DNA from: Candidatus Doudnabacteria bacterium
GTDB lineage: Bacteria > Patescibacteriota > Doudnabacteria > UBA920 > O2-02-FULL-48-8
Assembly: GCA_016186915.1 (NCBI GenBank)
Contig: JACPKU010000006.1
Coordinates: 12,488-76,487, forward strand
Direction: 5' to 3'
DNA length: 64,000 nt
Part shown: piece after piece, positions 23,726 through 52,696 of the stretch
Numbering within the stretch: position 1 is the stretch's first letter
How the letters are laid out: the number at the start of each line of letters is the position of its first letter
Program-made: the position numbers and the translations under genes
Notes under the pieces: generated by a model
The model's database searches: none
Seen by the model: the letters and a program-made list of their open reading frames with translations, nothing else
Told to the model about the DNA's origin: nothing

Positions 23726-23760
23726 AGAGCGTTTAGCTGTTAGCGTTTAGCGTATAGAGG
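23726..23760. repeat. (T)AGCGT-rich repeat flanking the 3' side of the four-helix-bundle gene; imperfect inverted partner at 24112-24146
   Basis: agcgtttagctgttagcgtttagcgtataga compared with the reverse complement of aacgctctacgctgtacgctatacgc (shared GCGTATAG/AGCGT cores). Confidence 0.45.
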
Positions 23761-24108
23761 TTTTAGACTTTGTATTAAGGCGTGCAACATTTTCTGTATT
23801 TCTTCTAAAAGAAGTTCGGCCCTTAGGTAATTTATATTTTGGTATTGGCGCTTAGCGATGACAATTTGTGTTTCTAGTTCACCCGAAGAAGAATTAGCTA
23901 TTCCAAGAAATTGGATAAACTCTAAGCGATGATTGCGTTTATAGCCCTCGGCAATATTCGACGCTATTGCAACCGCTGCTCTCTGCATCTGAGAAGCTAA
24001 ACCGTATGTTTCAGATTTCGGAAATTTAGCAGTAATTTTATAAATTTCGTCCACGAGATTGATCGCTTTTTGCCAAACTGTTAAATCCTTAAACGATTTT
24101 AATTTCAT
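23740..24108 (-). CDS. Four-helix-bundle protein (23S rRNA intervening-sequence-protein family, TIGR02436-like)
   Basis: WQKAINLVDEIY..FPKSETYGLASQMQRAAVAIASNIAEG..NSSSGELETQI is the classic family signature. Confidence 0.85.
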   Translation of the reverse strand: MKLKSFKDLTVWQKAINLVDEIYKITAKFPKSETYGLASQMQRAAVAIASNIAEGYKRNHRLEFIQFLGIANSSSGELETQIVIAKRQYQNINYLRAELLLEEIQKMLHALIQSLKPLYAKR

Positions 24109-24664: not shown

Positions 24665-26101
24665 TTAGTTTATTTTTTTCTTCTTCTTAGGCACCTCTAC
24701 CTTGAGATGCAATTCTTTGAGTTGTTTTTCAGTAACTTCCGAAGGGGAGCCCATCATCGGATCGGAAACAGATCCAGCAAGTGGAAAAGCGATTACTTCA
24801 GCAATTCTTTCTTCGCTGGCTAAGATTCGAATTAATCGATCAATTCCCGGAGCAATACCGCCGTGAGGGGGAACTCCGTAAGTAAAGGCTTCCAACATGT
24901 GGCTAAATTGTTTTTTTTGTTCTGGCGTAAAGCCAATGAGTTCAAAGATTTTTTCCTGTATTTTAGGATCGTGAATCCGAATACTGCCCCCGCCGATTTC
25001 CACCCCATTGAGCACTAAGTCGTGTTGTAGCCCCCGAGCCTTACCCGGGTCGCTGACCAGCAGAGAGATGTCATCAGGATGCGGAGCGGTGAACATATGA
25101 TGAGAAGGGGCCCACTTGCTTTCCCCTGAACCGTAGAAGAAGTCTTCCTCCGATTGTTCCGTGAACAGAGGGAAGTCCAAGACCCAGCAAAAAGCCAATT
25201 CATTGGGGTCTTGTTTATTTTTTCTTAAATCCGGCTTATCACTGTCGTATTTTGTCTTGGCTTCTCTGTGGCTAATCCGAGGCCAGGGAGTTTGAGTAAT
25301 TTTTTTCTCAGGCGTTAGAGTTTGGACTAAGGCAGTGAACAGTTTTTCAATCAGCTCTAAAATGTCGTTTTGTTCGACAAACGACACCTCCAAGTCGAGT
25401 TGATAAAATTCGCCTGGGCTTCTGTCCGCTCTGGCGTCTTCGTCGCGGAAACAGGGGGCGATTTGGAAATATTTTTCCAAACCCGCGACCATTAAAAGTT
25501 GTTTGTATTGCTGGGGGGATTGAGGGAGAGCGAAAAATTTTCCCGGATAAATACGAGAAGGAACCAGATAATCCCTTGCACCTTCAGGCGTAGATTTGGT
25601 TAAAATTGGCGTTTGGACTTCGGTGAATCCGAGGTCAGTTAAGTAGTTTCTAATAAAGTGGATGACTTTGTGTCGAAGTTTAAGATTTTTCTTCATCCGC
25701 TCACTTCTCAAATCAAGATAGCGGTACTTGAGTCTTTTTTCCTCATTTACATCTTTTGTATTGTCGATTTCAAAAGGTAAGGTTTCTGATTTATTGAGTA
25801 CGGTTAATTTACTTACCTCCAATTCAATCTTGCCTGTAGGCAACTCGTTGTTGATTTGTTTTTCATTGCGCTTTTTGATGGTCCCCTCTACCGCAAGTAC
25901 ATATTCACTTCGCACCGCTTGGGCGTTTTTGTGGGCTTGTGCCGCTACTTTTGGATTGACTACCAACTGCAAGATGCCTGTCATATCGCGCAAATCAAAA
26001 AAAATCAGCTTGCCGTGGTCGCGCCTGACATTCACCCAGCCCTGCAGCAAGACTTTTTCTCCAATTTTTTGCGGCGTTTCAGAAACGTAGGTTCTTTGCA
26101 T
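24665..26101 (-). CDS. aspS: Aspartyl-tRNA synthetase (compact, archaeal/non-discriminating-type length)
   Basis: N-terminal OB fold, class II motifs FRDEDARADRSPGEFYQLDLE and GGGSIRIHDP, C-terminal GIDRLIRIL. Confidence 0.9.
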   Translation of the reverse strand: MQRTYVSETPQKIGEKVLLQGWVNVRRDHGKLIFFDLRDMTGILQLVVNPKVAAQAHKNAQAVRSEYVLAVEGTIKKRNEKQINNELPTGKIELEVSKLTVLNKSETLPFEIDNTKDVNEEKRLKYRYLDLRSERMKKNLKLRHKVIHFIRNYLTDLGFTEVQTPILTKSTPEGARDYLVPSRIYPGKFFALPQSPQQYKQLLMVAGLEKYFQIAPCFRDEDARADRSPGEFYQLDLEVSFVEQNDILELIEKLFTALVQTLTPEKKITQTPWPRISHREAKTKYDSDKPDLRKNKQDPNELAFCWVLDFPLFTEQSEEDFFYGSGESKWAPSHHMFTAPHPDDISLLVSDPGKARGLQHDLVLNGVEIGGGSIRIHDPKIQEKIFELIGFTPEQKKQFSHMLEAFTYGVPPHGGIAPGIDRLIRILASEERIAEVIAFPLAGSVSDPMMGSPSEVTEKQLKELHLKVEVPKKKKKIN

Positions 26102-26131
26102 ATACTATAAATTTACTTGGCCAGTATAACA

Positions 26132-26170
26132 TAAAAAAAGCCCGGGCGCGAGTTGTGTTACGCGTCCGGG
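26132..26170 (-). terminator. Intrinsic terminator for the purSL-purQ operon (minus strand)
   Basis: gcccgggcgcg..cgcgtccgggc stem with A7 on the plus strand giving U7 on the minus strand; marks the low-GC/high-GC boundary. Confidence 0.7.
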
Positions 26171-26202
26171 CACACTGTGTGTCCATTGATCTTTCTTGAT
26201 TC

Positions 26203-26931
26203 CTAGCGCACCGCATCCACGCCGTTGCGGAAGATGGCTAGGCCGTCATCACCTCCTCGAAGTTTGTCCACCCGGCGGTCAGGGTGGGGCATTATTCCCA
26301 TGATCAGACCTGTTGCGTCGCAGGCTGCTGCGATGTGTGAGCCGTTCGGACTGGCCGGGTACTCTTTAGTCCCTTCTTCCGTTCCGTACGTGCCGGTAAT
26401 GTGGAGCCGGTCCAAGTCGCCGACGGGTCGTCCTTCGCCGTGCGCTGTAGGGATCACGATCGGCACACCCTCCAGTCCTTTGGTCCATATGCATCGGACC
26501 TTGGGCTCGTGTAGGTATACCGTGACGTTGTACCAGTGTTCGAAGTTGGCTGACTGGTTGAAATCCAGCGCCACAGTCGGCTCTCTTGCTGGGCCTGCGC
26601 CGATGAGTCCGGCAGCGGTCAGGACCTGGAAGCCGTTGCAGATTCCCAGCATGGGAATCCTTCGTTCGAGTACACGACTCAGTTGATCGGAAAGCCGGAG
26701 TCTCAGGTCAATGGCTTGCACTCGGCCAGTGCCGAAGTGATCGCCGTGACCGAATCCGCCCGGCCAGATAATCAGATCCGCCTCATCCAGCCGGCGCCTG
26801 CCCAGGAGGCACAGCTTGAGCGGCAGGACCTCCGGTCTGGCACCGGCAAGTTCAAGGGCGCGTTGGGTTTCCAGGTGGCAGTTCGTGCCCGGAACCCAAG
26901 GGATGATCGCACGAGGCTTGTGGGTTCTCAT
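26203..26931 (-). CDS. purQ: Phosphoribosylformylglycinamidine synthase, glutaminase subunit PurQ-like (class I GATase); high-GC island
   Basis: PGTNCHLE, PGGFGHGDH, GICNGFQVL, HGEGR, NPNGS motifs; start set at MRTHKP, giving an ATGA overlap with the purL stop; local GC ~60%. Confidence 0.85.
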   Translation of the reverse strand: MRTHKPRAIIPWVPGTNCHLETQRALELAGARPEVLPLKLCLLGRRRLDEADLIIWPGGFGHGDHFGTGRVQAIDLRLRLSDQLSRVLERRIPMLGICNGFQVLTAAGLIGAGPAREPTVALDFNQSANFEHWYNVTVYLHEPKVRCIWTKGLEGVPIVIPTAHGEGRPVGDLDRLHITGTYGTEEGTKEYPASPNGSHIAAACDATGLIMGIMPHPDRRVDKLRGGDDGLAIFRNGVDAVR

Positions 26932-29786
26932 GACACTACCTCCCGGAACGTTTTTGCCCACAGCGTGCTTAGTGTTGCGATGTCGGTTGTGAACAGGCGA
27001 TCCCCCGACACGTCGATTACCTGAACGTCGGGGTTGGGCGTGACCCAGCCGATTTCGACTGCGTCGTGGCCGAGCCATTTGTAGTCATCGGTTTTGGTCG
27101 TGAACACGATGCCACACGACATCTCTCCGAAAAGCGAGAAGAGCGAGTCGAAGGGTAGGTTGAGAACAAACCCGAGCCTGGATCCGATGGCCATCTCGAA
27201 CAGTCTTCGGATTAGTCCACCCTCAACCACGGCCGAACGCGAGCCTACCACACCTTTTCGCGCCAGGCTGTGGTATTTCGAAAATCCCTTGACTGCTTGA
27301 GCGAGGTCCACGATGGGCAGTTCGTTTCCGCGTTGTCCGTAGAGATCGAACAGCACTGATCCGCCGAGGTGCTTCTGCATAAGCCCTGGGCAGAACAGAA
27401 TGATGCGTTCTCCGACGTTTCCGAACGCCTTGGGTCGTAGTAGTCGGCCATCAGCCATGCGGCCAACTGTGAGAATATCCAGTGTCAGCGGCGCGTCGAT
27501 TCGTTCTCCTGATTTCGTTACAAACGTGCCGCTTGAACTGTCTTTGCCGGTGATGATAGGAACCCCGAGTTGTTCTGATGCCGGGACATACCCTTCCTTG
27601 ACCAGCTCGATCAGGGCTCGAGCATTGGTGGGGTTGTCCAGCACCTTAGGAGTGTAGACGTTGGCACAGGCTGTGATCTGCTTTGGGTCAAACCCGGCAG
27701 CCACAAGCTTGGTGACTGCTTGCAGGAAGACAAGTCGACCCAAGCCAGCTGGCGAGACCTCGCCGTAGAACTGATTGACCGCGTTACCTACCCCAAGCGC
27801 AAATCTTTTGCCTGGAACAGGTGCGGCGGCAAACAGATCATCTGGCATGTTCTGATCTTCACCACCGAGGTAGGGGATGAATGTGTTTCCTTGGACGGTC
27901 TGGTCGAATCGGTGTGCAGCCCACGATTGGTCGGCGAGATGGAAGTGGCCGAGGTGCTGGACGACAAGGTCTATCCAGTCCTGCTCGCTTGTGGGGATTG
28001 GCGGTTGGAACGGTTTTGGCTTTGGGAGCCGATCAGCCACCTCAATGCGTGGAAGGGGACAGTCATCCGTGAGGAACTCGTATGGCAGGTCCTCTACAAT
28101 CCCTTTTTCCGAAAGGGCCGGGGTTTGGAGCCATTGACGCTGGTCGAGTTCATCGTCAAACGCCACGACGCAGCGTCCGGTGTTGGTAAACATACCGATT
28201 ACGTCTGACGGCACGTCGTATTGGTCCAGAGTGTCTAGGGCCAGATCAAGGCGGCCAGGAGGAACGGCGATAACCATCCGCTCCTGGGATTCAGATAGCC
28301 AGATTTGCCAGCAGGACAGGCCAGCTGTCTTGAGTCGCACCCAAGCCAGGTTGACCCAGATGCCGCAACTCGAACCCATCTCACCAGCAGCAGAAGCAAG
28401 TCCGGCTGCGCCGCAGTCTGTGATTGCTCGGATGCAGCCCTGGTCGCGCAGAATAGGCACTGCTTCCATGAACTTGCGCTGTTCGATTGGGGCGCCGATT
28501 TGGACATGCGCTGCGTCCACGACTGCTGTTTGGTGGGTCATGCTGTCTGAACTGACCGTGGCGCCGTGGATCCCGTCGTTGCCTGTGGGACCACCAATGA
28601 GGAAGATGAAATCCCCAGGCACAGGTGCGCCCTTTTGGGCTTTGTCCTCGGGAATGATCCCGATACTGTGCCCTAGCGCAAACCCTTTCCAGTTGCGAGG
28701 ATGCATGAGGTAGGCAGAACAGGCCATGGGGATGCCCATTGGGTTCGTATATTCGTGTGTTCCGCGGATGGCTTCTTGGATTACTCTGGCCGGGTGGAAA
28801 GCACCTTCTGGCACGTCGTTCCAGTTGGTTCTGGGATCGGTAGTGGCCATGATGGTTGTGCCGCAAACAGGCCAACCTCCGAGCCCAGTTCCGATAACGT
28901 CGCGGATCACCCCGCCGTGCTTGGTCATGATACCGCCGTAAGGGTCGCCAGCGAATGTGGGAGAGATGTGGGTCTCGCCCTTGATGATCACGGCCCAGCC
29001 GCCGAACAGCTCCATCACTCCGCCGTTGTCCACGAAACATGACAGCACCAGCGGGTGGTTGATCTTTTCGGTCGCGGCCCGAATACACGGCAGCAGCCCC
29101 AGAGCCTTGAAGGTTGTGTGGAAGCAGTGGTCAGACCAGGCCGCGGCCGGATGTTCGAGTTCGACATCAGTCAGTGCGCGTCGCAGATTTCGACTGATGT
29201 GCTGTATCGCTAGTAGTTGTGCGTCCGTGAGGTGAGTCATCTTTCGGCTCTTTGCGAGGGTTTTCAGTTCTGCTTTGTCCATGCCCGCGACTGAAAAAAA
29301 CTGGACGGGCAAAGCCTCTGCTTGAGGGATCAGGGTGTCCCATTGCGCTTCGTTGATCACCTGCACTTCTGGGTTGTACAGATGGCGTGCGGCGATTTCC
29401 CGAGCAGCGATTTCGTCCACACCGGAAAATTGATACCGGTGCGCCAAGCGAACCCAGGTAACACCTTGGACACCGACAGCCTGGAAAGCGTGGAGGGCGG
29501 TTGGCATTTCCGGGTCGGTCATTGCCCGTTTGTAAGCCACTTCGATCACTGGTCCGCGGCTTAGATCGAGACGTGAACTAGAGAACGCAGTCTCGATCAC
29601 GGGATTTGCAAAAAGAATCCCGATGCGCGCCAGGTCAGCGATGGAAAGCTCAGGGCCTTCGCAACGGATCACCACCTCAATGTTCACTGACCTGAGTGAC
29701 GGCCAGGAGGCGAGAGCCGCGGCATGCAGTCTTTTGGCGATTGGGTCGTCGACGGTCCGAGTTTTGAAGAGAGTCAAAATTGGCAT
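26928..29786 (-). CDS. purL: PurS-PurL fusion: phosphoribosylformylglycinamidine synthase synthetase subunit with N-terminal PurS-like domain; high-GC island
   Basis: N-terminal FANPVIETAF-type PurS-like module; ETHISPTFAGDPYGGIMTKHGGVIRDVIGTG matches the PurL ETHNHP..PY.GAATG.GG.IRD motif; duplicated PurM-like halves; start set at the ATG preceded by ggaga (the track start at 29798 is a TTG). Confidence 0.85.
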   Translation of the reverse strand: MPILTLFKTRTVDDPIAKRLHAAALASWPSLRSVNIEVVIRCEGPELSIADLARIGILFANPVIETAFSSSRLDLSRGPVIEVAYKRAMTDPEMPTALHAFQAVGVQGVTWVRLAHRYQFSGVDEIAAREIAARHLYNPEVQVINEAQWDTLIPQAEALPVQFFSVAGMDKAELKTLAKSRKMTHLTDAQLLAIQHISRNLRRALTDVELEHPAAAWSDHCFHTTFKALGLLPCIRAATEKINHPLVLSCFVDNGGVMELFGGWAVIIKGETHISPTFAGDPYGGIMTKHGGVIRDVIGTGLGGWPVCGTTIMATTDPRTNWNDVPEGAFHPARVIQEAIRGTHEYTNPMGIPMACSAYLMHPRNWKGFALGHSIGIIPEDKAQKGAPVPGDFIFLIGGPTGNDGIHGATVSSDSMTHQTAVVDAAHVQIGAPIEQRKFMEAVPILRDQGCIRAITDCGAAGLASAAGEMGSSCGIWVNLAWVRLKTAGLSCWQIWLSESQERMVIAVPPGRLDLALDTLDQYDVPSDVIGMFTNTGRCVVAFDDELDQRQWLQTPALSEKGIVEDLPYEFLTDDCPLPRIEVADRLPKPKPFQPPIPTSEQDWIDLVVQHLGHFHLADQSWAAHRFDQTVQGNTFIPYLGGEDQNMPDDLFAAAPVPGKRFALGVGNAVNQFYGEVSPAGLGRLVFLQAVTKLVAAGFDPKQITACANVYTPKVLDNPTNARALIELVKEGYVPASEQLGVPIITGKDSSSGTFVTKSGERIDAPLTLDILTVGRMADGRLLRPKAFGNVGERIILFCPGLMQKHLGGSVLFDLYGQRGNELPIVDLAQAVKGFSKYHSLARKGVVGSRSAVVEGGLIRRLFEMAIGSRLGFVLNLPFDSLFSLFGEMSCGIVFTTKTDDYKWLGHDAVEIGWVTPNPDVQVIDVSGDRLFTTDIATLSTLWAKTFREVVS

Positions 29787-29902
29787 CAGGTTCTCCAATA
29801 TTGAAAGAAAGATCGTTTTCCTCCTACGAACTTACAAGAACTTCAAGGACGCTCGCCCTTGACTTTCCAGTCTACCATAGTTTGATGGTTGGAGAAAATA
29901 AT

Positions 29903-29913
29903 TATGGTATAAT
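29903..29913 (+). promoter_or_regulatory. Extended -10 TATGGTATAAT promoter; the transcript is probably near-leaderless for the exonuclease gene
   Basis: -10 ends 8 nt before the ATG at 29922. Confidence 0.5.
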
Positions 29914-29921
29914 GCACGAGT

Positions 29922-30500
29922 ATGTTAAATAAAATTGTTCTCGATCTTGAAACTCAAAAATCGTTTGATGAAGTAGGCGGCAGGGACCGGAACCATATGT
30001 TGAAAGTCTCGGTGGTGGGGATTTATTCTTATTCGTTGAATAAATTTTCGACCTTCACCGAAAGTCAGTTGTTTCGCCTTGGCGAGATGCTCGCAGAGGC
30101 AGATCAGATCATTGGTTTTAACATAAAAAATTTCGATTTTCCAGTCTTACAGCCTTATCTAAGTTTTAAACTTAATAAAATTCCTCATCTCGACATCTTG
30201 GAAGAGGTGGAGAAGCTTATCGGGCACAGAGTGAAGCTGGACAACCTGGCCCAGACGACCCTGGGGACAGCCAAGAGCGGGGACGGACTGATGGCCTTAA
30301 AGCTTTTCAAACAGGGGAGGATGGAGGAGTTAAAAAAATATTGTTTGGATGATGTCAAAATCACGCGCGATTTGTACAACTACGTCCGGAAATACGGCAA
30401 ACTTATTTATAAAGATTACTTTGAAACCCGAGAAATAAAAATAAATTTTGAGGAGCCGCAAGGAAGACAGAAGGCCTCGCGTCAAGCTTCATTATTCTGA
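29922..30500 (+). CDS. RNase H-fold 3'-5' exonuclease-like protein (PolB-exonuclease-like / YprB-type)
   Basis: VLDLETQ (Exo I-like acidic motif) and IIGFNIKNFDFPVL (Exo II-like), plus YCLDDVKITRDLY. Confidence 0.5.
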   Translation: MLNKIVLDLETQKSFDEVGGRDRNHMLKVSVVGIYSYSLNKFSTFTESQLFRLGEMLAEADQIIGFNIKNFDFPVLQPYLSFKLNKIPHLDILEEVEKLIGHRVKLDNLAQTTLGTAKSGDGLMALKLFKQGRMEELKKYCLDDVKITRDLYNYVRKYGKLIYKDYFETREIKINFEEPQGRQKASRQASLF

Positions 30501-33492: not shown

Positions 33493-33900
33493 ATGCAAGA
33501 TTGTATTTTTTGTAAAATCGTTGAAGGATCGATTCCGTCGAATAAGGTTTACGAGGACGATCAGGTCTTAGCATTTTTGGATATCCGGCCAGTGAGTAAG
33601 GGGCACACCTTAGTTATTCCCAAAAAACATTCTCAAGACTTGTTGGATACTGACGACGAGACGCTGCAGCACCTTCTACTGGCAGCCAAAAAAGTGTCCC
33701 GGGCCGTAGTAAAGGCCACGGGGGCTCAAGGCTTTAATCTCGGGGTGAACAATGGCAAAGATTCAGGTCAGGAAGTGATGCATTTGCATTTTCATATCAT
33801 TCCTCGATACGTCAATGACGGTCTAAGCCCGTGGCCGCACCGAGAAAGCGATCCCACCGCCCTTTCCGAGCTTGCAAAAAATATTAAGCAGGCGTTTTGA
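33493..33900 (+). CDS. HIT-family (histidine triad) nucleotide hydrolase
   Basis: CIFCKI..; HLHFHIIPR histidine-triad motif. Confidence 0.85.
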   Translation: MQDCIFCKIVEGSIPSNKVYEDDQVLAFLDIRPVSKGHTLVIPKKHSQDLLDTDDETLQHLLLAAKKVSRAVVKATGAQGFNLGVNNGKDSGQEVMHLHFHIIPRYVNDGLSPWPHRESDPTALSELAKNIKQAF

Positions 33901-33901
33901 T

Positions 33902-34909
33902 ATGAAATATCTCATCACCGGCGGAGCGGGATTTATTGGTTCGAATTTCATTCATTATCTTTTTAAAAAATATCCAGATTGCGAAGTGGTAAATTTGGAT
34001 TTGCTTACTTATGCGGGGAATCTGGACAATTTAAAAGACATAGAAAATAATCCCAACTATAGATTTGTAAAAGGTGATATTGGAGATTTGGATTTGGTTT
34101 CTAAACTTGTGCAAGGGATAGATATGATCGTAAATTTTGCCGCAGAATCGCATAATGATCGTGCAATCATGGACCCTGGTATATTTGTAAAAACAAACGT
34201 GCTTGGAACCCAAATCCTTTTAGAGGCTGCCAAAAGAGCAGGGAACAAAAGATTCCATCATATCTCGACTTGTGAAGTCTTTGGAGATTTAGAATTGAAT
34301 GAAGATAGGAAATTTTTGGAAACAGACAAATTTCAGCCAAAAACTCCTTATAATGCCTCAAAAGCTGCAGCAAACCATGAGGTCATGGCCTATTTTCATA
34401 CTTATAAATTACCAGTGACAATCAGCCACTGTTCGAATAATTACGGCCCGTACCAATTTCCAGAGAAATTGATTCCATTGTTTGTTACCAATGCTCTGGA
34501 AGATAAACCTCTGCCACTTTTCAAAAATAGCCATTATAAGAGGGAATGGATACACGTTGATGATCATTCATCAGCAGTTGATTTAATACTACAAAAAGGA
34601 AAAATTGGGCAGAGCTATAATATCGGCACTGGCGTTGAAAAATCGGTTGAAGAAATCACTGATTTACTTTTAAAAATCCTTAATAAACCCGTGAGTCTTA
34701 AAACTTATGTTTCTGATAGATTGCAACATGACAAAAGGTATGTTTTGGATAATACAAAGATAAAAGAAGAATTGGGGTGGGGTCCGCAAATCGATTTTCA
34801 GAAAGGAATGGAAGAAACTATACAATGGTATCAGGAAAATAAAGATTGGTGGCAACGATGTAAAAGTGGCTCTTATCAAGACTATTACAACAGTTATTAC
34901 AAAAAATAA
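33902..34909 (+). CDS. rfbB: dTDP-glucose 4,6-dehydratase
   Basis: MKYLITGGAGFIGSNF Rossmann motif, YNASKAAAN (YxxxK), RmlB-typical C-terminus. Confidence 0.9.
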   Translation: MKYLITGGAGFIGSNFIHYLFKKYPDCEVVNLDLLTYAGNLDNLKDIENNPNYRFVKGDIGDLDLVSKLVQGIDMIVNFAAESHNDRAIMDPGIFVKTNVLGTQILLEAAKRAGNKRFHHISTCEVFGDLELNEDRKFLETDKFQPKTPYNASKAAANHEVMAYFHTYKLPVTISHCSNNYGPYQFPEKLIPLFVTNALEDKPLPLFKNSHYKREWIHVDDHSSAVDLILQKGKIGQSYNIGTGVEKSVEEITDLLLKILNKPVSLKTYVSDRLQHDKRYVLDNTKIKEELGWGPQIDFQKGMEETIQWYQENKDWWQRCKSGSYQDYYNSYYKK

Positions 34910-35909: not shown

Positions 35910-36752
35910 ATGCCACAAAAGATTATAATTCTTGGAAGCAAAGGAAACCTGGGCGGAAAACTTATGGAGGTTTATGCTGACTTAAGGCCCGCTGGCTGGG
36001 ATCGAGAAGAGCTGGATGTGACGGATGAGGAGCAAGTAAAGCCCAAGCTCAAAGAATTTAAACCCGATTTAGTGATCAATTGCACTGCTTATAATGATGT
36101 GGATGGCGCAGAAGAGGATCGGGCAGTGGCAGAAGCGATAAACGGGTTGGCACCTGGCTATCTCGCTGCGGTGTGCGCGGAGATGGACGCTGTTTTTGTG
36201 CATTTTAGCACTGGCCAAGTTTTTGCCGGAGACAATAGTCAGGGGTATAATGAAGACGACGTCCCAAGCCCGCTAAACACCTATGGCAGGTCTAAGCTGA
36301 TGGGGGAGATGGAAGTTGAAAAAAACACTGAAAAATATTATTTGATTCGCACCGCCTGGCTTTATGGGGCTGGCCCGTCGTCGGGCAAGAAGAAGAGTTT
36401 TGTGGATATAATGCTCGATTTGGCGAAAAAGGACAGGCCGATAAAAGGCGTAGATGATGAGTTTGGCAACCCAACCTATAGCTTGGATTTGGCGCAAGCC
36501 GTGCGTGCGATGATAGAAGAGAAAAAGCCGTTTGGAGTTTATCACCTGGTAAACGAAGGCGTGGCTTCGCGTTTGGATTGGATGAAAGAAATATTCATAA
36601 TCAAAGAAATGGAAGTGGGGATTGTGCCAGTAAGTCGTGAGGAGTTTGCAGGCAAACGGAAAGCCAAGCGCCCGCAATACGAAGTTTTGAACAACACGAA
36701 ATTTATCAAGCTTCGGCCGTGGACCGAGGCACTGAAGGAATATTTGAAATGA
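35910..36752 (+). CDS. rfbD: dTDP-4-dehydrorhamnose reductase
   Basis: KIIILGSKGNLG, YGRSKLMGE, RmlD-typical length and order; start set at MPQKIII. Confidence 0.85.
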   Translation: MPQKIIILGSKGNLGGKLMEVYADLRPAGWDREELDVTDEEQVKPKLKEFKPDLVINCTAYNDVDGAEEDRAVAEAINGLAPGYLAAVCAEMDAVFVHFSTGQVFAGDNSQGYNEDDVPSPLNTYGRSKLMGEMEVEKNTEKYYLIRTAWLYGAGPSSGKKKSFVDIMLDLAKKDRPIKGVDDEFGNPTYSLDLAQAVRAMIEEKKPFGVYHLVNEGVASRLDWMKEIFIIKEMEVGIVPVSREEFAGKRKAKRPQYEVLNNTKFIKLRPWTEALKEYLK

Positions 36753-37483
36753 AAGGTGTGATTCTCGCAGGTGGGAAGGCTACAAGATTAAGACCCTTAA
36801 CTTTCGTTACGAACAAACACTTGTTGCCAGTCTATAACAAACCGATGATCTTTTATCCGCTTGAAGCCATGGCTAAAGCTGGGATTAAAGATGTGTTAAT
36901 GATCACAGGTCCTGATCATGCCGGGCATTTTTTAAATTTGCTTCGATCCGGAGGTGAATTTGGACTGAATCTAACATATGAGATTCAAGATGAAGCAGGG
37001 GGACTGTCTCATGCAGTAAGACTTGCAGAATCGTTTGCAGATAACCAAAAACTTCTTGTGATTTTAGGGGATAATATATTTGAGCATGATTTATCCGATG
37101 CTGTAAAAGATTTTGAAAGCCAAGACAGAGGAGCAAGAATTTTTGCTAAAGAGATGGATGAAGCAGGGCAGTATGGTGTAGTTGAGATAGACAGTGAAGG
37201 CACGGTTTTATCAATTGAAGAAAAGCCAAAAAAGCCAAAAAGTAAATTGGCCCAGACAGGAATTTATATGTATGATAATCAAGTGTTTGATTTGATAAAA
37301 GAACTTAAGCCTTCCACAAGAGGCGAGCTGGAAATTACTGATTTAAATAATTTATATTTGAAACAAGGAATCTTAAGTTGTGAAGTTATGAAAGGCTGGT
37401 GGGTTGACGCGGGAACTTCTTTTGATGAATTGCTGCGCGCCAGCAATCAAGTCGCAAAACTTACAAAACAAAAAGATAAATAA
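36749..37483 (+). CDS. rfbA: Glucose-1-phosphate thymidylyltransferase-like sugar nucleotidyltransferase
   Basis: MKGVILAGGKATRLRPLT..; ATGA overlap with the rmlD stop. Confidence 0.85.
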   Translation: MKGVILAGGKATRLRPLTFVTNKHLLPVYNKPMIFYPLEAMAKAGIKDVLMITGPDHAGHFLNLLRSGGEFGLNLTYEIQDEAGGLSHAVRLAESFADNQKLLVILGDNIFEHDLSDAVKDFESQDRGARIFAKEMDEAGQYGVVEIDSEGTVLSIEEKPKKPKSKLAQTGIYMYDNQVFDLIKELKPSTRGELEITDLNNLYLKQGILSCEVMKGWWVDAGTSFDELLRASNQVAKLTKQKDK

Positions 37484-41202: not shown

Positions 41203-44200
41203 ATGAATTTCATAGCTGCCAGAAAAAATAGATATTTTATTAAAAGCAAAACCGCTAAGTTTGTCGGTTTGGGCTTCGTGTTGGCTCTAACCGTTTCTTT
41301 TATTGGATTTTCACTGGCTAACCACAACAGCGGCACTGGAATCCCGGTGGACACTGGCTGGATTGACGCTTCTAGATTTGTTGGAAGCGTGGAGTTTGAT
41401 TGTGGCCAGACCGTGGGTTCAGTCTGGGGGCAAAGAGGTGACCAATTCACGATTCCAGGACATGTTTTAAATATTCCGGAAGGTTCATATACGATTGATA
41501 TCCGCGCTCATTATGGGTTTTATGAAGCAGACCCACAAGCGCCGCAAACCAATGAAACTATGAGAGTAAGCACCTCTGTTGCTTCCAGACAAATCCCTGA
41601 TTTGAATGGCCATGGCGGATCTAGACCTGACAGAGACAACTGTGATCAGATCAACGCTAATTTTAGAATTTACACCAACATTACCCGCAGTCCGATTAAC
41701 TACCAGGACGGTGGGATTAGATTTGCCGGCTTAACCTCAGATTCGCAGAGTATCAGCATTCAGGCGGTGCGGGTGCATGGCACTTCAACTCCTCCGCCCC
41801 CGCCTCCGCCGCAGCCGTGCGTGCCAGTGGGTTTGATTATGCCGCAAAGCGGGCAGGTATTTGGGGCCAATGAGACCAACCCTGCTTTCCAGTGGCAGGG
41901 GACCAACCGGACCTTCTATATCCTGGACATTACCGAGGATCCGAACTTTTCTTGGTGGTGGAATAATGGCAGTGGCGCTGGCGGCGGTATTCAAATTACT
42001 TCTGCTAATTTTTCGGACGTCACCAATACTTTCTACTCCCAAGGGCACCCCGCTCCGGGATTGGCTCAAGCCGGCAAAACTTATTACTGGCGAGTGTTTG
42101 CTTACAATACGGACGATCCGGGCGCTGGCTGTCACTCAGTCGTGAGGTCGTTCTCTTTGCAATCAACTCCGCCGCCGCCCCCGCCTCCTCCTCAAAAAGC
42201 CCAAATTACCTTAGTCAAAGAAGTGATCAACAACAACGGTGGCAACAAGCAGCCCTCAGATTTCGCCTTACATATCGCGGGGCACACGTTAACCAGTGGC
42301 CAATCTGTCGAACTTAACCCCGGCAATTATCAAGCTACGGAAACTCAGCAAGCCGGTTATGCCTTGTTAGGTTGGCGAGGCGCTTGTGATGGTAGCGGTA
42401 GCGTAACCTTGCAAGCCGGTCAGAACGTGACTTGTGTAGTAACCAATGATGACCAAGCCCAGCCTACTGTTTCGTTGTCTTTAGTGAAAAATGTGCGAAA
42501 CGTGACCCAAGGGCAAACCACATTTGTAGATTCAGTTTCCGCCCAGCCAAACGAACAGGTAGAGTTCAGAATCCAAGTGGCGGCTTCTGGCAACACCAGC
42601 GCCCAAAACGTCGTGGTGACTGATACTCTGCCAAATAACTTTAATCTTAGTTCCGGTAGTTTAACCAACAATCTAGGCAACATGTCAGCCGGCAGCACTC
42701 AAATCATAACCTTGAGCGCTACTGCTGCCTCGGCCTTTAACTTCCCAATCGGTTCGTCCACTTGGATCAATACCGCTACAGCTACCGCCTCTAACGCCAA
42801 CACGGTTTCAGACACTGCTCACGTGGTAGTTAACCGCCAAATTACCGGTACCCCCAGCCTGACCATTGACAAAACTGTCCGAAACGTCACAGCCGGCCAA
42901 GCAATATTTAGCAATTCTGTATCAGCCAACCCGCAAGATCAAGTGGAATTCAAAGTTGTTGTGAGCAACGTCGGACAGGCCACAGCCAACAATGTGGTGG
43001 TGACTGATACTCTGCCAAATAACTTTAATCTTAGTTCTGGCAGTTTAACCAACAATCTAGGCAACATGTCAGCCGGCAGCACTCAAATCATAACCTTGAG
43101 CGCCACTGCTGCCTCTGCCTCTAACTTCCCCATCGGTTCGTCCACTTGGACCAATACTGCTACGGCTACCGCTTCTAATACCAATACGGTTTCTGATACC
43201 GCCAATGTGATTGTAGAAAGAGACGGACCACCTGGCGATGCTCAACTAAGTATCACCAAAGAAGTCAGAAACGTTACTCAAGGAGTAGCTTTCTTTTCTA
43301 AATCCGCATCAGCTCAGCCAAACGAACAAGTCGAGTTTAGAATCCGCGTTCGATCAACTGGTCAAACTACAGCCAACAATGTGAACCTGACTGATATTTT
43401 GCCAAATAACTTTGTATTGAACTTTGCCCAGACGGGCGCAGGAGTCAGCGGCTCCAACACCCAGTTTAGTTTGGGCAATATGCCGACGAACACTGAAAGA
43501 ACTCTGTCCTTGTTTGTGACTGCGGCTTCAGCCGCCAATTTCCCAATCGGCACCAGCACTCACACCAACACAGCCACTGCCACAGCCTCTAACGCCAATT
43601 CCGTCTCTGACAATGCTTCAGTCGTGATTAACCGGGACGGCGGAGGCAATGGCAACCCATTCTTAGCAATCACGAAAGAAGTAAGAAATCTCACTGACAA
43701 CACGGGCTATTCTCATTCAGTAACCGCGGATGACAGCGATCGCGTAGAGTTTAGAATTGTTGTGCGAAACACCGGCAGCTCAAACTCTACTGCTACCAAC
43801 GTTCGCGTGACGGATTTCTTGCCGGCCAACCTGGAATTTGTTGCCAGTACGTTAAGGATTGACAGCAACACGCAGTTTAGCAATAACCTGCTTGGCAATA
43901 TTTTCTTAGGCAATCTGTCTGCGAATCAGAGCAAAACTATTACCTTTGAAGCAAGGGTAAATGCCAACTTCAACAATACGCTGATAAACACTGCCACTGC
44001 TTTCTCGGACAACACCTCGCCAGTCAATGACAGCGCCAGCGTGTTCGTCTCGCGCGTGGTTGGCGGAAATATTGATCTGGTCTTGAGCAAGTCCGCGTAT
44101 AACTTAACTCAAGGACGGGACGCTACCGCGGTAACCGCGCGTGCAGGCGATCAGATTGAATACATTTTGCGCGTAGAAAATCGCGGCAACGCCACTGCCA

Positions 44201-50706: not shown

Positions 50707-51267
50707 ATGAAAGCGAGCACAAAAAGGAAAATCAAAAAGAAAAGCCTCCAGCTCACCAAACAAATATTGGTAACTTTAGCAACAGCTCCGAAAGCTCTTT
50801 TTGATATTTTTATAGATAGCAGTCCTTATACCAGACGTTTGTTTGCTGACCGTGAAATTACTCGGAGTCAATTGCAACGCGCAATACAGGATTTAAAAAG
50901 GCAGCGCTTAATTAAGATGAGGGAATATAAGCAAAAACTGATTTATGAGCTAACTGACCTGGGAAGAGCGCAAATGCTTCGGTGGAATTACAAATTTCGC
51001 CCTAAGCAAGAGAGACGAGATGGCTTAGGCACCATCGTGATATTTGACATCCCTGAAACTAAACGGCAGGCGCGTGATTTCTTGCGGCGTTTTTTAAAAG
51101 AGAATCAATTCACTCAGTTGCAGAAAAGTGTGTTTATTGGACGGTTTTGGCTACTGGCAGAGTTTTATGATTTATTGACTGAACTTCGAATAGTAGAACA
51201 TGTATCAGTGTTGGAAGGACGAATTCCACATACGACTGCTAATAATCGTTTTAGAAACCGTTCCTAA
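50707..51267 (+). CDS. PaaX-like small transcriptional regulator (winged-helix N-terminal domain + Cas2-fold middle domain)
   Basis: LIYELTDLGRAQMLRW (wHTH) followed by GTIVIFDIPETKRQARDFLRRFLKENQFTQLQKSVFIG (Cas2-like beta-alpha-beta pattern seen in the PaaX central domain). Confidence 0.55.
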   Translation: MKASTKRKIKKKSLQLTKQILVTLATAPKALFDIFIDSSPYTRRLFADREITRSQLQRAIQDLKRQRLIKMREYKQKLIYELTDLGRAQMLRWNYKFRPKQERRDGLGTIVIFDIPETKRQARDFLRRFLKENQFTQLQKSVFIGRFWLLAEFYDLLTELRIVEHVSVLEGRIPHTTANNRFRNRS

Positions 51268-51317
51268 ATTATTAATTGTGGTGTAATGGTAAATAACCGT
51301 AAACTTAATTTTCTAGC

Positions 51318-51463: not shown

Positions 51464-52615
51464 ATGCGTCAGAGCGAGTATGCTCAAGCCGGAGTCGATT
51501 ACACGCAGATCCAAGGGTTCAAGGACGCAATGGTCGAAGTGGGGAAGAAAACTCTGGCTTTCCCAAATCGGCGAGGCGTCTACGTCGAGCAAGACGTCAT
51601 GCACAGCCACGGGGTGGTTTACTACTACCACGGGCCGGCGAGGACTCATCGTTGGGCGAAGACCCAGGAAGGCCTTGGCAACAAGAACTGGATCGCCGAA
51701 TGGATGTACCAGTTCAGTGGAACGGGTCGGACCTACTACGAAGGTATCGGGATCGACACTGCCCGCATGGCAGTCAACGACAACATCGCTCAGGGCGCGA
51801 TGCCTGCCGTGTACACCGACGAGGTCGCGGCCGGTCCAAGCAGTTGGTTTTCAGACCGGCGTCGAGCGGCGGATTTGGCGAACGGGTTCTTTCGTGCATG
51901 TGAAGAGGATGGGATGGCTCTCGGAGCAGGCGAATCGCCAGCGCTCAAGTACCTCATCAACGCGCTGCCGCCGGTTACCAGTGCACCGTCCCTGAGTGGG
52001 TCGGTTACGGGGATCATTGCGCCAGCAAGTCGGCTGATCACCGGCAAGAAGCTGCGAGCTGGGGACAAGATCATCGGCGTGCCTTCGAGCGGTCTTCAGG
52101 CGAACGGAATTTCGCTCGTGATCCGTCGAACCATGGGCGACCCGTCAGCCGGCATCCCTCCATTGAAGGACGGGTTCCTCACCAAGTTGCCGAACGGCAA
52201 CACTCTTGGAGAGGAAGCGTTGATCCCGACGCGGTCATACGTGGCGTTCGTTGAAGCGCTTCAGGAAGCTGATGTGGAGATTCACGCACTACTTCCTGGG
52301 ACAGGGGATGGCGTCGCGAAGCTGGCGTTCGACAAGCGTCCGTTCACTTACCGCGTACACACCTGGACGCCGAACATTCCGCTTTTGTTCTTGTTCATGC
52401 GGGAGTTGGGCGTTTCCCTGGAAGATTGTCTCAAGACTTTCAACTGGGGGATCGGCCTCTACGCGTTCGTGCCGCCTAACGAAGTTGACCATGTGATCCA
52501 GATCGGGAGGGACATAGGGGACGAGGTCCTGGAGGTCGGGGTGGTCGAGCAGGGTGAACGCATGACCATCTTCGGGCCAGCGAACGATCTTAAGCTCCCA
52601 CCCCCAGGGGAGTAG
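51464..52615 (+). CDS. purM: Phosphoribosylformylglycinamidine cyclo-ligase (AIR synthetase) PurM homologue with a ~45-aa insertion; high-GC island
   Basis: EYAQAGVDY (PurM SYKDAGVDI), GIGIDTARMAVNDNIAQGAMP, PSSGLQANGISLVIRR (PurM GSSGPHSNGYSLVRK), ALIPTRSYV (LLAPTRIYV), KTFNWGIGLYAFVP; SD ggggagg-N6-ATG; GC ~60%. Confidence 0.8.
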   Translation: MRQSEYAQAGVDYTQIQGFKDAMVEVGKKTLAFPNRRGVYVEQDVMHSHGVVYYYHGPARTHRWAKTQEGLGNKNWIAEWMYQFSGTGRTYYEGIGIDTARMAVNDNIAQGAMPAVYTDEVAAGPSSWFSDRRRAADLANGFFRACEEDGMALGAGESPALKYLINALPPVTSAPSLSGSVTGIIAPASRLITGKKLRAGDKIIGVPSSGLQANGISLVIRRTMGDPSAGIPPLKDGFLTKLPNGNTLGEEALIPTRSYVAFVEALQEADVEIHALLPGTGDGVAKLAFDKRPFTYRVHTWTPNIPLLFLFMRELGVSLEDCLKTFNWGIGLYAFVPPNEVDHVIQIGRDIGDEVLEVGVVEQGERMTIFGPANDLKLPPPGE

Positions 52616-52679: not shown

Positions 52680-52696
52680 GCTATAATGGGATTACC

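What the first reader, a model, noticed from the sequence alone, without database searches (positions are those of the whole stretch)
26132..29800. High-GC (~58-60%) island encoding a PurS-PurL fusion plus PurQ (FGAM synthase) in an otherwise ~40% GC genome
GC content jumps sharply exactly at the operon boundaries: a terminator at 26132-26170 on one side and the low-GC promoter region 29799-29921 on the other. The island holds one translationally coupled operon (ATGA overlap) for the glutaminase PurQ and a PurL whose N-terminus carries a PurS-like domain (..ANPVIETAF). The spurious antisense ORFs that fill this stretch in the ORF track are another symptom of the high GC. No other purine-biosynthesis genes lie within 25 kb on either side, and reduced-genome CPR-like bacteria usually lack de novo purine synthesis. 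This is a strong candidate for recent horizontal acquisition, for example from a high-GC host such as an actinobacterium. The island uses host-like AT-rich promoter sequence, which suggests domestication rather than contamination.
Basis: partly seen in the sequence, partly recalled or inferred. Interest (0 to 1): 0.75.

Follow-up and report, generated by a model that had tools for sequence, protein, structure and literature searches.

The report
Horizontally acquired FGAM synthase operon
A small-genome Candidatus Doudnabacteria bacterium has a two-gene purine-synthesis operon (FGAM synthase) inserted between two housekeeping genes; it was most likely acquired from another, GC-richer bacterium of the same radiation rather than from an actinobacterium, which makes it a clear but fairly ordinary case of gene transfer.

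Summary
The GC island is real. It measures 57.9% GC against 44.8% for the rest of the window, with sharp edges at a terminator and at the upstream intergenic region. It holds one ATGA-coupled operon. The first gene is a 952-aa PurL with two N-terminal PurS-like repeats, structurally a large PurL lacking its glutaminase domain. The second is a 242-aa PurQ.

Horizontal acquisition is well supported. In two related Doudnabacteria the flanking exonuclease and aspS genes are adjacent, about 70 nt apart, and a third relative carries a different insert at the same site. Synonymous-site GC stays far above expectation after correcting for amino-acid content (z = 8.7 and 5.6). Four independent assemblies reproduce both junctions at 100% identity, so a chimera is effectively excluded.

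The nearest homologues (53-59% identity) are from Patescibacteria, where this family sits inside full pur operons, so nothing points to an actinobacterial donor. A second GC-rich islet 21.6 kb away encodes a Patescibacteria-type PurM, so the operon is not the only pur locus nearby.

Comparable GC-discordant pur islets occur in four other Patescibacteria loci, which hints at repeated transfer within the radiation. The enzyme architecture and the phenomenon are both known. Interest is moderate to low.

The parts
26134..29866 (-). Inserted segment (about 3.73 kb). It contains a 5' leader, purSL, purQ and an intrinsic terminator, bounded by the two copies of the 13-nt repeat.
   Evidence: The GC profile is. 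Relatives L091 and L093 have exo and aspS about 70 nt apart with nothing between them. The junction alignment is A2.
26928..29786 (-). purSL: FGAM synthetase subunit, 952 aa. It has two N-terminal PurS-like repeats (about residues 1-78 and 79-170), a linker, and a duplicated AIRS/AIRS_C synthetase core.
   Evidence: Pfam and NCBIfam hits are. hhalign of repeat 1 against repeat 2 gives probability 91.6%, E = 8e-7. The AF2 model has pLDDT 87.5. Foldseek TMq is 0.86-0.90 to large PurL (1T3T, 6JTA, human 9NB3) against 0.52-0.66 to small PurL.
26203..26931 (-). purQ: glutaminase subunit, 242 aa, translationally coupled to purSL by an ATGA overlap at 26928-26931.
   Evidence: GATase_5 scores 132.9 bits and TIGR01737 126.7 bits. 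Cys98 and His216 are conserved; the third triad position is Asp218 where five relatives have Glu.
26133..26171 (-). Intrinsic terminator after purQ: GC-rich hairpin followed by U7.
   Evidence: Sequence. Fold energy is -19.7 kcal/mol, z = -2.85.
29867..29879 (-). Left copy of a 13-nt imperfect direct repeat, TATGGTAGACTGG. It is an extended -10-like element that continues the ancestral exo-aspS spacer.
   Evidence: Alignment A2 and sequence. It matches the right copy at 11 of 13 positions. By my own estimate this is only marginally above chance.
26121..26133 (-). Right copy of the repeat, TATGTTATACTGG. It is the -10-like element directly upstream of the aspS 5' leader and overlaps the terminator U-run.
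   Evidence: Alignment A2. It is homologous to L091 TATGATATAATGC and L092 TGTGTTATAATAT upstream of aspS.
29901..29928 (-). Sigma-70-like promoter TTAACA-16-CATAAT, lying in host-derived spacer upstream of purSL.
   Evidence: The promoter scan scores it 10 of 12. The same TTAACA...CATTATA sequence is present in the empty site of L093.
29843..29862 (-). Hairpin in the purSL 5' leader. It lies inside the insert and its function is unknown.
   Evidence: No Rfam family matches at E <= 1.
51464..52615 (+). Second GC-rich islet: purM (Patescibacteria-type AIR synthetase, 383 aa) with its own terminator at about 52642-52680.
   Evidence: GC is 0.59 and GC3 0.71, z = 8.6. TIGR00878 scores 134.7 bits over the full length. 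The best solved structure is PurM 9JZY. Orthologues sit inside pur clusters in L004 and L099.
24665..26101 (-). aspS (host flank), syntenic with relatives.
   Evidence: NF001750 scores 647.6 bits. Relatives are 75-81% identical.
29922..30500 (+). DnaQ/RNase_H_2-like exonuclease (host flank), divergent from aspS in relatives.
   Evidence: Pfam hit. Synteny with L091-L093 is shown.

Best explanation
The island is a 3.7-kb, two-gene FGAM synthase operon that was inserted into the short spacer between the divergent exonuclease and aspS genes of a Candidatus Doudnabacteria genome. The first gene, purSL, encodes a PurS-PurS-PurL fusion, in effect a large PurL without its glutaminase domain. The second gene is purQ.

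The source was most likely another Patescibacteria lineage of roughly 55-60% GC that carries these genes natively. The source was not an actinobacterium.

The operon now sits behind host-derived promoter sequence and ends in its own terminator, just upstream of a retained -10-like element for aspS.

The inferred function is step 4 of de novo purine synthesis. PurQ hydrolyses glutamine, ammonia is channelled to PurSL, and PurSL uses ATP to convert FGAR to FGAM. The separately located, equally GC-rich purM then converts FGAM to AIR.

What is shown: the composition, the insertion relative to kin, the domain and fold architecture, and the family's pur-operon context in other genomes. What is inferred: enzymatic activity, which promoter is used, donor identity, timing, and whether the rest of the pathway exists in this genome.
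For: Composition:
- The island is 57.9% GC against 44.8% for the rest of the window, with sharp edges.
- GC3 is 0.634 (purSL) and 0.674 (purQ) against 0.50 expected from host codon usage on the same amino-acid sequences, z = 8.7 and 5.6. The island also has the top dinucleotide-signature distance.

Empty site:
- L091 and L093 come from genomes whose AspRS is 79% and 75% identical to the window's. L093's AspRS is named Candidatus Doudnabacteria.
- Both keep the order Lgt-exo<>aspS-ybaK-scpA-scpB-...-GH-EamA-GH1, with exo and aspS about 70 nt apart.
- L092 (named Candidatus Doudnabacteria) has a different insert at the same site: a sigma factor, an 83-aa ORF and a PIN-domain gene.
- The window keeps the same synteny on both sides of the island.

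Junctions:
- Positions 29867-29921 align with the ancestral spacer.
- Both ends carry the 13-nt -10-like repeat.

Assembly:
- Logan assemblies of four different runs are 100% identical over 5.5-8.9 kb, and each spans both junctions.

Family and function:
- The best homologues are Patescibacteria at 53-59% identity.
- In an NJ tree the window protein is sister to the P0004/P0006/P0007 group in 95 of 100 bootstraps, inside a clade that includes a Doudnabacteria sequence.
- The gene pair lies in purH-purB-purM-purSL-purQ-purE-purC (L001, Doudnabacteria), in purN-purD<>purSL-purQ-purM (L004), in purD-purM-x-purSL-purQ (L089), and in purSL-purQ-x-purK-purE-purM-purC-purB (L099).
- The fold matches large PurL over the whole chain.
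- All 105 columns that are invariant in the 30-sequence alignment include the window sequence. These cover the DHCxH motif.
- A native-composition donor type exists: L099, a Paceibacterota locus at 55% GC with a pur operon at 53-60% GC.
Against: - No close donor is sampled. The maximum identity is 59% at protein level and about 72% at DNA level in the conserved core. Direction and recency therefore rest on composition and synteny alone.
- No integrase, transposase or tRNA flanks the island. The 13-nt repeat has 2 mismatches, is itself promoter-like, and could be convergent.
- purSL is GC-richer than its surroundings in every locus examined (+0.6 to +10.6 points), so part of the contrast is intrinsic to the gene.
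- Both proteins score far below the NCBIfam equivalog cut-offs: 292 against 648 and 126.7 against 177.8.
- PurQ has Asp in place of the triad Glu.
- Only steps 4 and 5 of the pathway are visible in the 64-kb window; tblastn finds no purD, purN, purE, purC, purB or purH.
Confidence: 0.8

Rival explanations
1. The operon is ancestral at this site. It was precisely deleted in the related Doudnabacteria, and its high GC reflects amino-acid composition and codon selection on a conserved enzyme rather than foreign origin.
For: - purSL is always somewhat GC-richer than neighbouring DNA in 16 loci.
- Amino-acid composition alone explains about 6 of the 12 excess GC points.
- In high-GC Patescibacteria locus L090, purSL-purQ lies only about 3.5 kb from ybaK-aspS-scpAB, which hints at an old linkage.
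Against: - GC3 remains 13-17 points above the host-codon expectation, z = 5.6-8.7.
- Three relatives lack the operon, and two of them have a compact 70-nt spacer homologous to the window's junction sequence. This would require several clean deletions.
- In L003 the pur genes deviate in the opposite direction, with GC3 below the host (z = -7.7). In L098 and L099 they match the host. There is therefore no universal GC-raising selection.
Confidence: 0.08
2. The donor was a high-GC non-CPR bacterium, for example an actinobacterium.
For: - The island's GC of 58-61% fits many non-CPR phyla.
- The PurSL architecture also occurs at 29-47% identity in Planctomycetota, Omnitrophota, Chloroflexota, Acidobacteria and other phyla.
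Against: - All of the closest named homologues (49-56% identity) are Patescibacteria or Doudnabacteria, apart from one 4.3-kb contig labelled Anaerolinea sp. (P0018, 51%).
- Among the genome-collection loci labelled with a phylum, non-CPR matches reach at most 41% identity, and two unclassified 'uncultured bacterium' or 'bacterium' groups reach 44-47%. No actinobacterial sequence appears among the 120 listed proteins or the 80 genome loci.
- The NJ tree nests the window protein inside the Patescibacteria clade with 95/100 support for its sister group.
- The co-located purM is 65-78% identical to a family named only from Patescibacteria lineages, apart from one 7.6-kb contig labelled Acetobacteraceae (P0137).
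Confidence: 0.04
3. The island is an assembly chimera or binning contaminant.
For: There is an abrupt composition change at both ends, and the genome is a MAG.
Against: - Both junctions lie inside one 420-kb contig, with Doudnabacteria synteny on both sides.
- Four independent Logan assemblies (SRR12113430, SRR12113420, SRR12113385, SRR12113383) reproduce both junctions at 100% identity.
- The breakpoints fall exactly in an intergenic spacer, and the insert carries a complete operon with a leader and a terminator.
Confidence: 0.02
4. The gene pair is a divergent paralogue that no longer works, or never worked, in purine synthesis. It could be an amidotransferase for another substrate, or a decaying remnant in a genome lacking the rest of the pathway.
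For: - Scores are far below the equivalog cut-offs.
- PurQ has Glu replaced by Asp in the triad.
- P0001 is only 56% identical to its nearest full-length relative yet groups by NJ with more distant sequences, which suggests an unequal rate.
- No purD, purN, purE, purC, purB or purH is present in the 64-kb window.
Against: - The low scores are a property of the whole family, and that family sits in complete pur operons elsewhere.
- All family-invariant residues are retained.
- The ORFs are intact, translationally coupled, and have a Shine-Dalgarno sequence and a terminator.
- purM, the next step in the pathway, is present and intact in the same window.
- Asp is a conservative replacement at the triad acid position.
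Confidence: 0.1

Closest known systems
Large PurL (single-chain FGAR amidotransferase; Salmonella StPurL 1T3T, human PFAS 9NB3)
   Same: The N-terminal PurS-dimer-like domain, the linker and the pseudo-dimeric AIRS/AIRS_C synthetase core are all present. Foldseek TMq is 0.86-0.90 across essentially the whole 952-aa model. The NCBIfam large-PurL model NF003672 aligns residues 84-946 to profile positions 75-985.
   Different: The C-terminal glutaminase domain is missing and is supplied by a separate, translationally coupled PurQ. Sequence identity is only about 21-22%. The score is far below the equivalog cut-off (199.7 against 783).
Three-protein FGAR-AT complex: PurS2 + small PurL + PurQ (Thermotoga maritima 3D54; Bacillus)
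   Same: The glutaminase PurQ is a separate protein. The closest solved chain by sequence is small PurL of Thermus (3VIU, 134.7 bits). [quoted passage not shown]
   Different: Here the two PurS units are fused in tandem to the N-terminus of PurL (hhalign repeat-to-repeat probability 91.6%). No stand-alone purS is needed. Small PurL covers only TMq 0.52-0.66 of the model.
'PurSL' subunit annotation (JGI/KEGG-style name)
   Same: JGI already names homologues 'phosphoribosylformylglycinamidine synthase subunit PurSL' (P0011). Proteins of about 940-990 aa with this architecture occur in Patescibacteria, Planctomycetota, Omnitrophota, Chloroflexota, Poribacteria and Acidobacteria.
   Different: Nothing architectural. 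The window copy is simply a divergent member, at most 59% identical to any sampled relative. I found no paper in the held library that describes the form.
Compositionally atypical genomic islets acquired by HGT in CPR genomes (for example the cyo operons reported in soil Doudnabacteria and Saccharibacteria, PMC8407418)
   Same: A metabolic operon that is patchily distributed among CPR relatives and is inferred to be laterally acquired.
   Different: In this case the likely donor pool lies inside the CPR rather than in Proteobacteria or Chlamydiae. The cargo is a biosynthetic step of a pathway that CPR bacteria are usually said to lack.

Membership tests
FGAM synthase (FGAR amidotransferase, EC 6.3.5.3), synthetase subunit | Duplicated PurM-superfamily (AIRS + AIRS_C) core with an FGAR-AT linker | tested here: met
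   AIRS_C scores 99 bits, AIRS 34.5 and FGAR-AT_linker 31.0, all above Pfam cut-offs. The fold matches PurL structures at E = 1e-58.
FGAM synthase (FGAR amidotransferase, EC 6.3.5.3), synthetase subunit | PurS or PurS-like N-terminal module (two PurS units per PurL) | tested here: met
   NCBIfam PurS model NF005019 hits residues 81-142 at E = 2.3e-5. Two internal repeats align to each other with hhalign probability 91.6%. The AF2 model shows two beta-alpha-beta-alpha-beta units at residues 3-68 and 80-144. The whole-chain match to large PurL includes its N-domain.
FGAM synthase (FGAR amidotransferase, EC 6.3.5.3), synthetase subunit | Score at or above the curated equivalog cut-off for PurL (NF002290, TIGR01736, NF003672) | tested here: not met
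   Scores are 292 against 648, 288 against 526 and 200 against 783. The models were built for the small and large PurL forms, so this reflects subfamily divergence. Members of the same family in pur operons are named 'hypothetical protein' or only 'AIR synthase-related' by NCBI.
FGAM synthase (FGAR amidotransferase, EC 6.3.5.3), synthetase subunit | Genomic association with other de novo purine genes | tested here: met
   Orthologues lie in pur operons in L001, L004, L089 and L099. In the window itself only purM is present, 21.6 kb away.
FGAM synthase (FGAR amidotransferase, EC 6.3.5.3), synthetase subunit | ATP- and glutamine-dependent conversion of FGAR to FGAM | not testable with these tools
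   This needs an enzyme assay or purL complementation.
PurQ (class I glutamine amidotransferase subunit of FGAM synthase) | GATase_5 fold with a Cys-His-Glu catalytic triad | tested here: inconclusive
   GATase_5 scores 132.9 bits. Cys98 (GICNGFQ) and His216 are invariant. The acid is Asp218 (HPD) where five relatives have Glu (HPE or HQE). TIGR01737 scores 126.7 against a cut-off of 177.8.
Horizontally acquired genomic islet | Composition deviating from the host beyond what amino-acid content explains | tested here: met
   GC3 z-scores are 8.7 and 5.6, and the dinucleotide distance is the highest in the window.
Horizontally acquired genomic islet | Absence from the orthologous site in related genomes | tested here: met
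   L091 and L093 have empty sites, and L092 has a different insert.
Horizontally acquired genomic islet | Gene phylogeny incongruent with organismal phylogeny | tested here: inconclusive
   In the NJ tree the window's PurSL is sister to P0004/P0006/P0007, whose taxonomy is unknown, and not to the Doudnabacteria P0012 sequence. No species tree or taxon labels are available for most sequences.
Horizontally acquired genomic islet | Mobility signatures (integrase, transposase, tRNA target, flanking repeats) | tested here: inconclusive
   No mobility gene or tRNA is adjacent. The only signature is a 13-nt imperfect direct repeat (11 of 13 identical) that is also promoter-like. The repeat finder shows no longer flanking repeat.

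The most novel reading that the evidence does not exclude
De novo purine modules (purSL-purQ, purM, purD/purN) circulate horizontally within the Candidate Phyla Radiation as small, promoter-less or self-terminated islets. On this reading, supposedly host-dependent lineages repeatedly gain, and perhaps lose, the capacity to make AIR or purines.

The supporting pattern is as follows. GC-discordant pur islets are seen in the window in two separate places. They are also seen in four other Patescibacteria loci: L089, L004 and L005 are GC-rich in hosts of about 39-47% GC, and L003 is GC-poor in its host at synonymous sites (GC3 0.49 against an expected 0.61). Pur genes match the host fully in L098 and L099 and largely in L001 and L090. 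L099 is a candidate donor type at 55% GC.

The Patescibacteria-type PurM family being 65-78% identical across named Patescibacteria lineages fits recent spread, although it equally fits strong purifying selection.
Probability: 0.4. Interest if true: 0.5.

Novelty: new member of a known kind. Interest (0 to 1): 0.33.

Why it matters
CPR/Patescibacteria are generally described as lacking complete de novo nucleotide synthesis and as depending on hosts (PMC8407418). This locus is a clean, well-bounded example of a Doudnabacteria lineage gaining steps 4 and 5 of purine synthesis. It has an empty-site control and independent assembly support. The genes came from within the radiation rather than from a free-living high-GC phylum.

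This matters in three modest ways:
- It cautions against inferring donors from GC content alone.
- It shows that pur capacity is patchy and mobile among close CPR relatives.
- It documents that the fused PurS-PurS-PurL plus PurQ architecture, intermediate between the textbook three-protein and single-chain forms, is the standard Patescibacteria form, while current equivalog models fail to name it.

It does not reveal a new enzyme, a new mechanism or a new kind of element.

Tried and rejected
- **Riboswitch or leader RNA upstream of purSL or purM.** The Rfam gathering scan of the window finds only tRNA-Glu. Permissive scans of 29750-29960 and 51240-51500 find nothing at E <= 1.
- **Phage or AMG origin.** The IMG/VR scan gave one distant hit at 29% identity (L088), which I did not pursue.
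- **Systematic collection of close relatives from genome contigs and metagenome contigs.**
  - The metagenome scan returned one partial locus, L087.
  - The cross-genome GC comparison therefore rests on about 10 CPR loci fetched by exact-protein look-ups.
- **Flanking repeats, IS ends or an integrase.** The repeat finder shows only short chance-level families inside the island.
- **Other pur genes in the window.** tblastn with purH, purB, purE and purC (L001), purD and purN (L004, L089) and PurS (L005) finds none.
- **L087 as the closest donor-like genome.** Its AIRS gene is not an orthologue of the window's purM and its flanks are compositionally mixed.
- **Literature on 'PurSL'.** Nothing relevant is in the held library.
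- **Whole-genome pur inventory of the MAG.** This cannot be done with the available tools.

Full report
**Observation**

The window averages 45.5% GC. The segment from the purQ stop region to the purSL start is 57.9%, and the remainder is 44.8%. In 200-nt windows GC holds at 54-64.5% between about 26200 and 29800. It drops to 37-48.5% within about 200 nt on either side.

Two minus-strand genes fill the segment. A 952-aa ORF runs 26928-29786 and a 242-aa ORF runs 26203-26931. They share an ATGA stop/start overlap.

Downstream lies a GC-rich hairpin followed by U7 at 26133-26171. It folds at -19.7 kcal/mol, z = -2.85. Ten antisense ORFs of at least 80 aa inside the island are the usual by-product of high GC.

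**Identity of the genes**

The large protein carries AIRS_C, AIRS and the FGAR-AT linker. It also has a sub-threshold PurS match at residues 81-142 (Pfam). NCBIfam PurS model NF005019 hits the same stretch at E = 2.3e-5. The small protein is a GATase_5/PurQ protein.

A profile comparison of residues 1-78 against residues 79-170 gives 91.6% probability and E = 8e-7. The N-terminus therefore contains two PurS-like repeats.

An AlphaFold model built on 30 homologues has pLDDT 87.5 and pTM 0.88. It shows two beta-alpha-beta-alpha-beta units ahead of the linker. The model superposes on Salmonella and human large PurL with query-normalised TM 0.86-0.90. On small PurL it reaches only 0.52-0.66.

Two PurS units are known to be equivalent to the N-domain of large PurL (PMC3815217). 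The protein is therefore a large PurL without its glutaminase domain, and the glutaminase is encoded separately as PurQ.

Both proteins fall far below NCBI's equivalog cut-offs: 292 against 648, and 126.7 against 177.8. This is a property of the whole subfamily.

PurQ keeps the nucleophile Cys98 and His216. It has Asp218 where five relatives have the triad Glu.

**Who has this family**

The exact protein is recorded as a hypothetical protein of Candidatus Doudnabacteria (HYW51_01645) on a 420-kb contig. The next-best sequences are 48-56% identical proteins of about 950 aa. Those with names are from the Patescibacteria group or Doudnabacteria, apart from one short contig labelled Anaerolinea sp.. 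One partial metagenome hit reaches 59%.

The pair sits inside purine clusters in other genomes:
- purH-purB-purM-purSL-purQ-purE-purC in another Doudnabacteria genome (L001).
- purN-purD<>purSL-purQ-purM in L004.
- purD-purM-x-purSL-purQ in L089.
- purSL-purQ-x-purK-purE-purM-purC-purB in a Paceibacterota genome (L099).

The family is therefore the regular FGAM synthase of Patescibacteria. More distant versions at 29-47% identity with the same length occur in Planctomycetota, Omnitrophota, Chloroflexota, Poribacteria and Acidobacteria. JGI already labels some members 'subunit PurSL'. No actinobacterial sequence appears anywhere near the top.

In a neighbour-joining tree the window protein is sister to P0004/P0006/P0007 in 95 of 100 bootstraps. 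P0006 is the L004 protein. This group lies inside the Patescibacteria clade.

**Is it an insertion?**

The AspRS next to the island has relatives at 75-81% identity. Two of those with names (P0245, P0260) are Doudnabacteria MAGs.

In two relatives (L091, L093) the gene order is Lgt-exonuclease<>aspS-ybaK-scpA-scpB-...-GH-EamA-GH1. This is identical to the window. In both, the exonuclease and aspS are divergent neighbours about 70 nt apart. In a third relative (L092) the same spacer holds a sigma factor, an 83-aa ORF and a PIN-domain gene.

Aligning the junctions shows two things:
- Window positions 29867-29921 are the ancestral spacer. This stretch includes a TTAACA-16-CATAAT promoter-like site.
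- A 13-nt extended -10-like element occurs at both ends of the insert: TATGGTAGACTGG at 29879-29867 and TATGTTATACTGG at 26133-26121.

The right-hand copy continues into a 5' leader homologous to that of aspS in L091. The insert is thus about 26134-29866. The operon appears to have landed just downstream of the aspS promoter. It is now read from host-derived sequence, and aspS keeps a -10-like copy immediately after the purQ terminator.

The repeat is short, imperfect and promoter-like. By my own estimate it is only marginally above chance, so it is suggestive rather than proof of a target duplication.

**Composition beyond amino acids**

I held each protein sequence fixed and drew codons from the usage of the other 55 ORFs. 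Under this model purSL would be 50.7% GC. About half of its 12-point excess is therefore amino-acid composition.

Observed GC3 is 0.634 against an expected 0.499 (z = 8.7). For purQ it is 0.674 against 0.502 (z = 5.6). The island also has the largest dinucleotide-signature distance in the window.

**Chimera test**

Logan assemblies of four separate sequencing runs contain the same Lgt-exo<>purSL-purQ-aspS arrangement. They are 100% identical to the window over 5.5-8.9 kb spanning both junctions.

**A second islet**

A tblastn search with pur proteins from L001 found a PurM homologue at 51464-52615. Its properties are:
- 58.8-59.2% GC with GC3 0.70-0.71. The GC3 z-score is 8.6, so it ranks among the top three outliers together with purSL and purQ.
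- An AT-rich upstream region and a strong terminator.
- A full-length match to TIGR00878 below the cut-off (134.7 against 236), and full-length alignment to solved PurM structures.

It belongs to a family that is 65-78% identical across named Patescibacteria lineages. Members of that family sit between purE and purC in L099 and after purQ in L004.

The claim of no pur genes within 25 kb is therefore wrong. Both pur loci in the window are compositionally foreign in the same direction. Both have the L004 cluster among their nearest relatives. No other pur gene is in the window.

**Wider pattern**

The same codon-corrected test on other Patescibacteria loci and per-gene GC/GC3 for L098 and L099 give the following:

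| Locus | Pur genes | Host flanks | Result |
|---|---|---|---|
| L089 | purD-purM-x-purSL-purQ, 54-55.5% GC | about 39% GC | GC-rich islet, z 3-7 |
| L004 | purD/N/SL/Q/M | 43-47% GC | GC-rich islet, z 3.7-8.8 |
| L005 | PurS-x-purM | 42-45% GC | GC-rich islet, z 1.8-4.6 |
| L003 | purSL GC3 0.494 against expected 0.609 | higher GC3 than the pur genes | opposite deviation, z = -7.7 |
| L001 | 53-57% GC | 46-54% GC | largely native-like (purSL and purQ z 0.3-0.9; purH, purM, purC z 2.9-3.4) |
| L090 | purSL 70%, purQ 69% GC | 65% GC | near native (purSL z 5.6, purQ z 1.3) |
| L098 | purM 40% GC | 37% GC | native-like (per-gene GC only) |
| L099 | 52.5-60.6% GC | 55% GC | native-like (per-gene GC only) |

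This argues against a universal selective cause of high GC. It is compatible with repeated transfer of pur modules among CPR lineages, with L099-like genomes as plausible sources. The sample is small, and it was chosen by similarity to the window's genes.

**Mechanism (inferred)**

PurQ generates ammonia from glutamine. The PurS-PurS N-domain and linker couple it to the synthetase core. The core uses ATP to amidate FGAR to FGAM, and PurM then cyclises FGAM to AIR.

All 105 invariant columns of the 30-sequence family alignment are retained in the window protein, including the DHCxH motif. Activity, the true transcription start, and the presence of the other pathway steps in this genome are untested.

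**Verdict**

This is a real, cleanly bounded, horizontally acquired FGAM synthase operon in a Doudnabacteria genome. The donor is most likely within Patescibacteria. The enzyme architecture is known and widespread. The donor guess and the claim that the operon is the only pur locus nearby do not.

Noticed in passing
window 51464-52615 (+), terminator about 52642-52680: A second GC-rich islet (59% GC, GC3 0.71, z = 8.6) encodes a PurM of a Patescibacteria-wide subfamily. The subfamily is 65-78% identical across Paceibacterota, Saccharimonadales, Berkelbacteria, Nealsonbacteria, Moranbacteria and Kaiserbacteria. It scores below the TIGR00878 cut-off (134.7 against 236) and is named only 'AIR synthase-related' or 'hypothetical protein' by NCBI. 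It lies inside pur operons in L004 and L099. The adjacent DHA2/EmrB-type MFS transporter (52697-54220) is also mildly GC-rich (GC3 z = 4.2).
   Followed up: partly
L089 6092-13626; L004 4182-11131; L005 1238-3144; L003 10001-13566: Pur gene blocks in other Patescibacteria are also compositionally discordant with their hosts. They are GC-rich in L089, L004 and L005, and GC3-poor in L003. They match the host in L098 and L099 and largely in L001 and L090. This suggests repeated HGT of pur modules within the CPR.
   Followed up: partly
L092 8222-9985 (same exo-aspS spacer in a related Doudnabacteria): A different insert (sigma-70 family factor, an 83-aa ORF and a PIN_3 toxin-like gene) occupies exactly the spacer where the window has purSL-purQ. 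The spacer looks like a recurrent integration spot.
   Followed up: no
window 26206-26931, PurQ residue 218: The catalytic-triad acid is Asp (HPD) in the window protein but Glu (HPE or HQE) in all five relatives aligned.
   Followed up: partly
window 23740-24108 (-): A low-GC (36.6%) gene for a 23S rRNA-intervening-sequence / bAvd-like four-helix protein sits between ybaK and scpA. These two genes are adjacent in relatives L091-L093, so this is another small lineage-specific insertion. bAvd-like proteins can accompany diversity-generating retroelements, but no reverse transcriptase was seen nearby.
   Followed up: no
window 33872-34909 and 36719-37483 (+): The rmlB-like dehydratase and rmlA-like nucleotidyltransferase in the dTDP-rhamnose cluster are strong low-GC outliers (35% and 39% GC; GC3 z = -5.7 and -5.8). 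Their neighbours are host-like. This may be xenologous replacement.
   Followed up: no
window 50707-51267 (+): A 186-aa protein matches the PaaX central Cas2-like domain and, weakly, Cas2. It lies directly upstream of the purM islet. A paralogue (PaaX_M, 155 aa) occurs in relative L091. No CRISPR array or other cas genes were seen.
   Followed up: no
window 7230-10232 (+) and 41203-44583 (+): Two very large, mildly GC-rich putative surface proteins. One is 1000 aa with a cellulase-like region and a C-terminal T4SS-pilin-like segment. The other is 1126 aa with DUF11, DUF7619 and SpaA-like repeats.
   Followed up: no
L005 1238-2020 and L006 2729-3511: In one Patescibacteria lineage a stand-alone PurS (97 aa) and an unannotated 154-aa ORF with no Pfam hit directly precede the Patescibacteria-type purM, with overlapping stop and start codons. 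All three are GC-rich relative to the flanking dnaA-dnaN-recF region.
   Followed up: no
L090 10001-19993: In a 65%-GC Patescibacteria genome purSL-purQ lies about 3.5 kb from the ybaK-aspS-asnS-scpAB cluster, in inverted orientation relative to the window. This could be chance or an old linkage of these loci.
   Followed up: no
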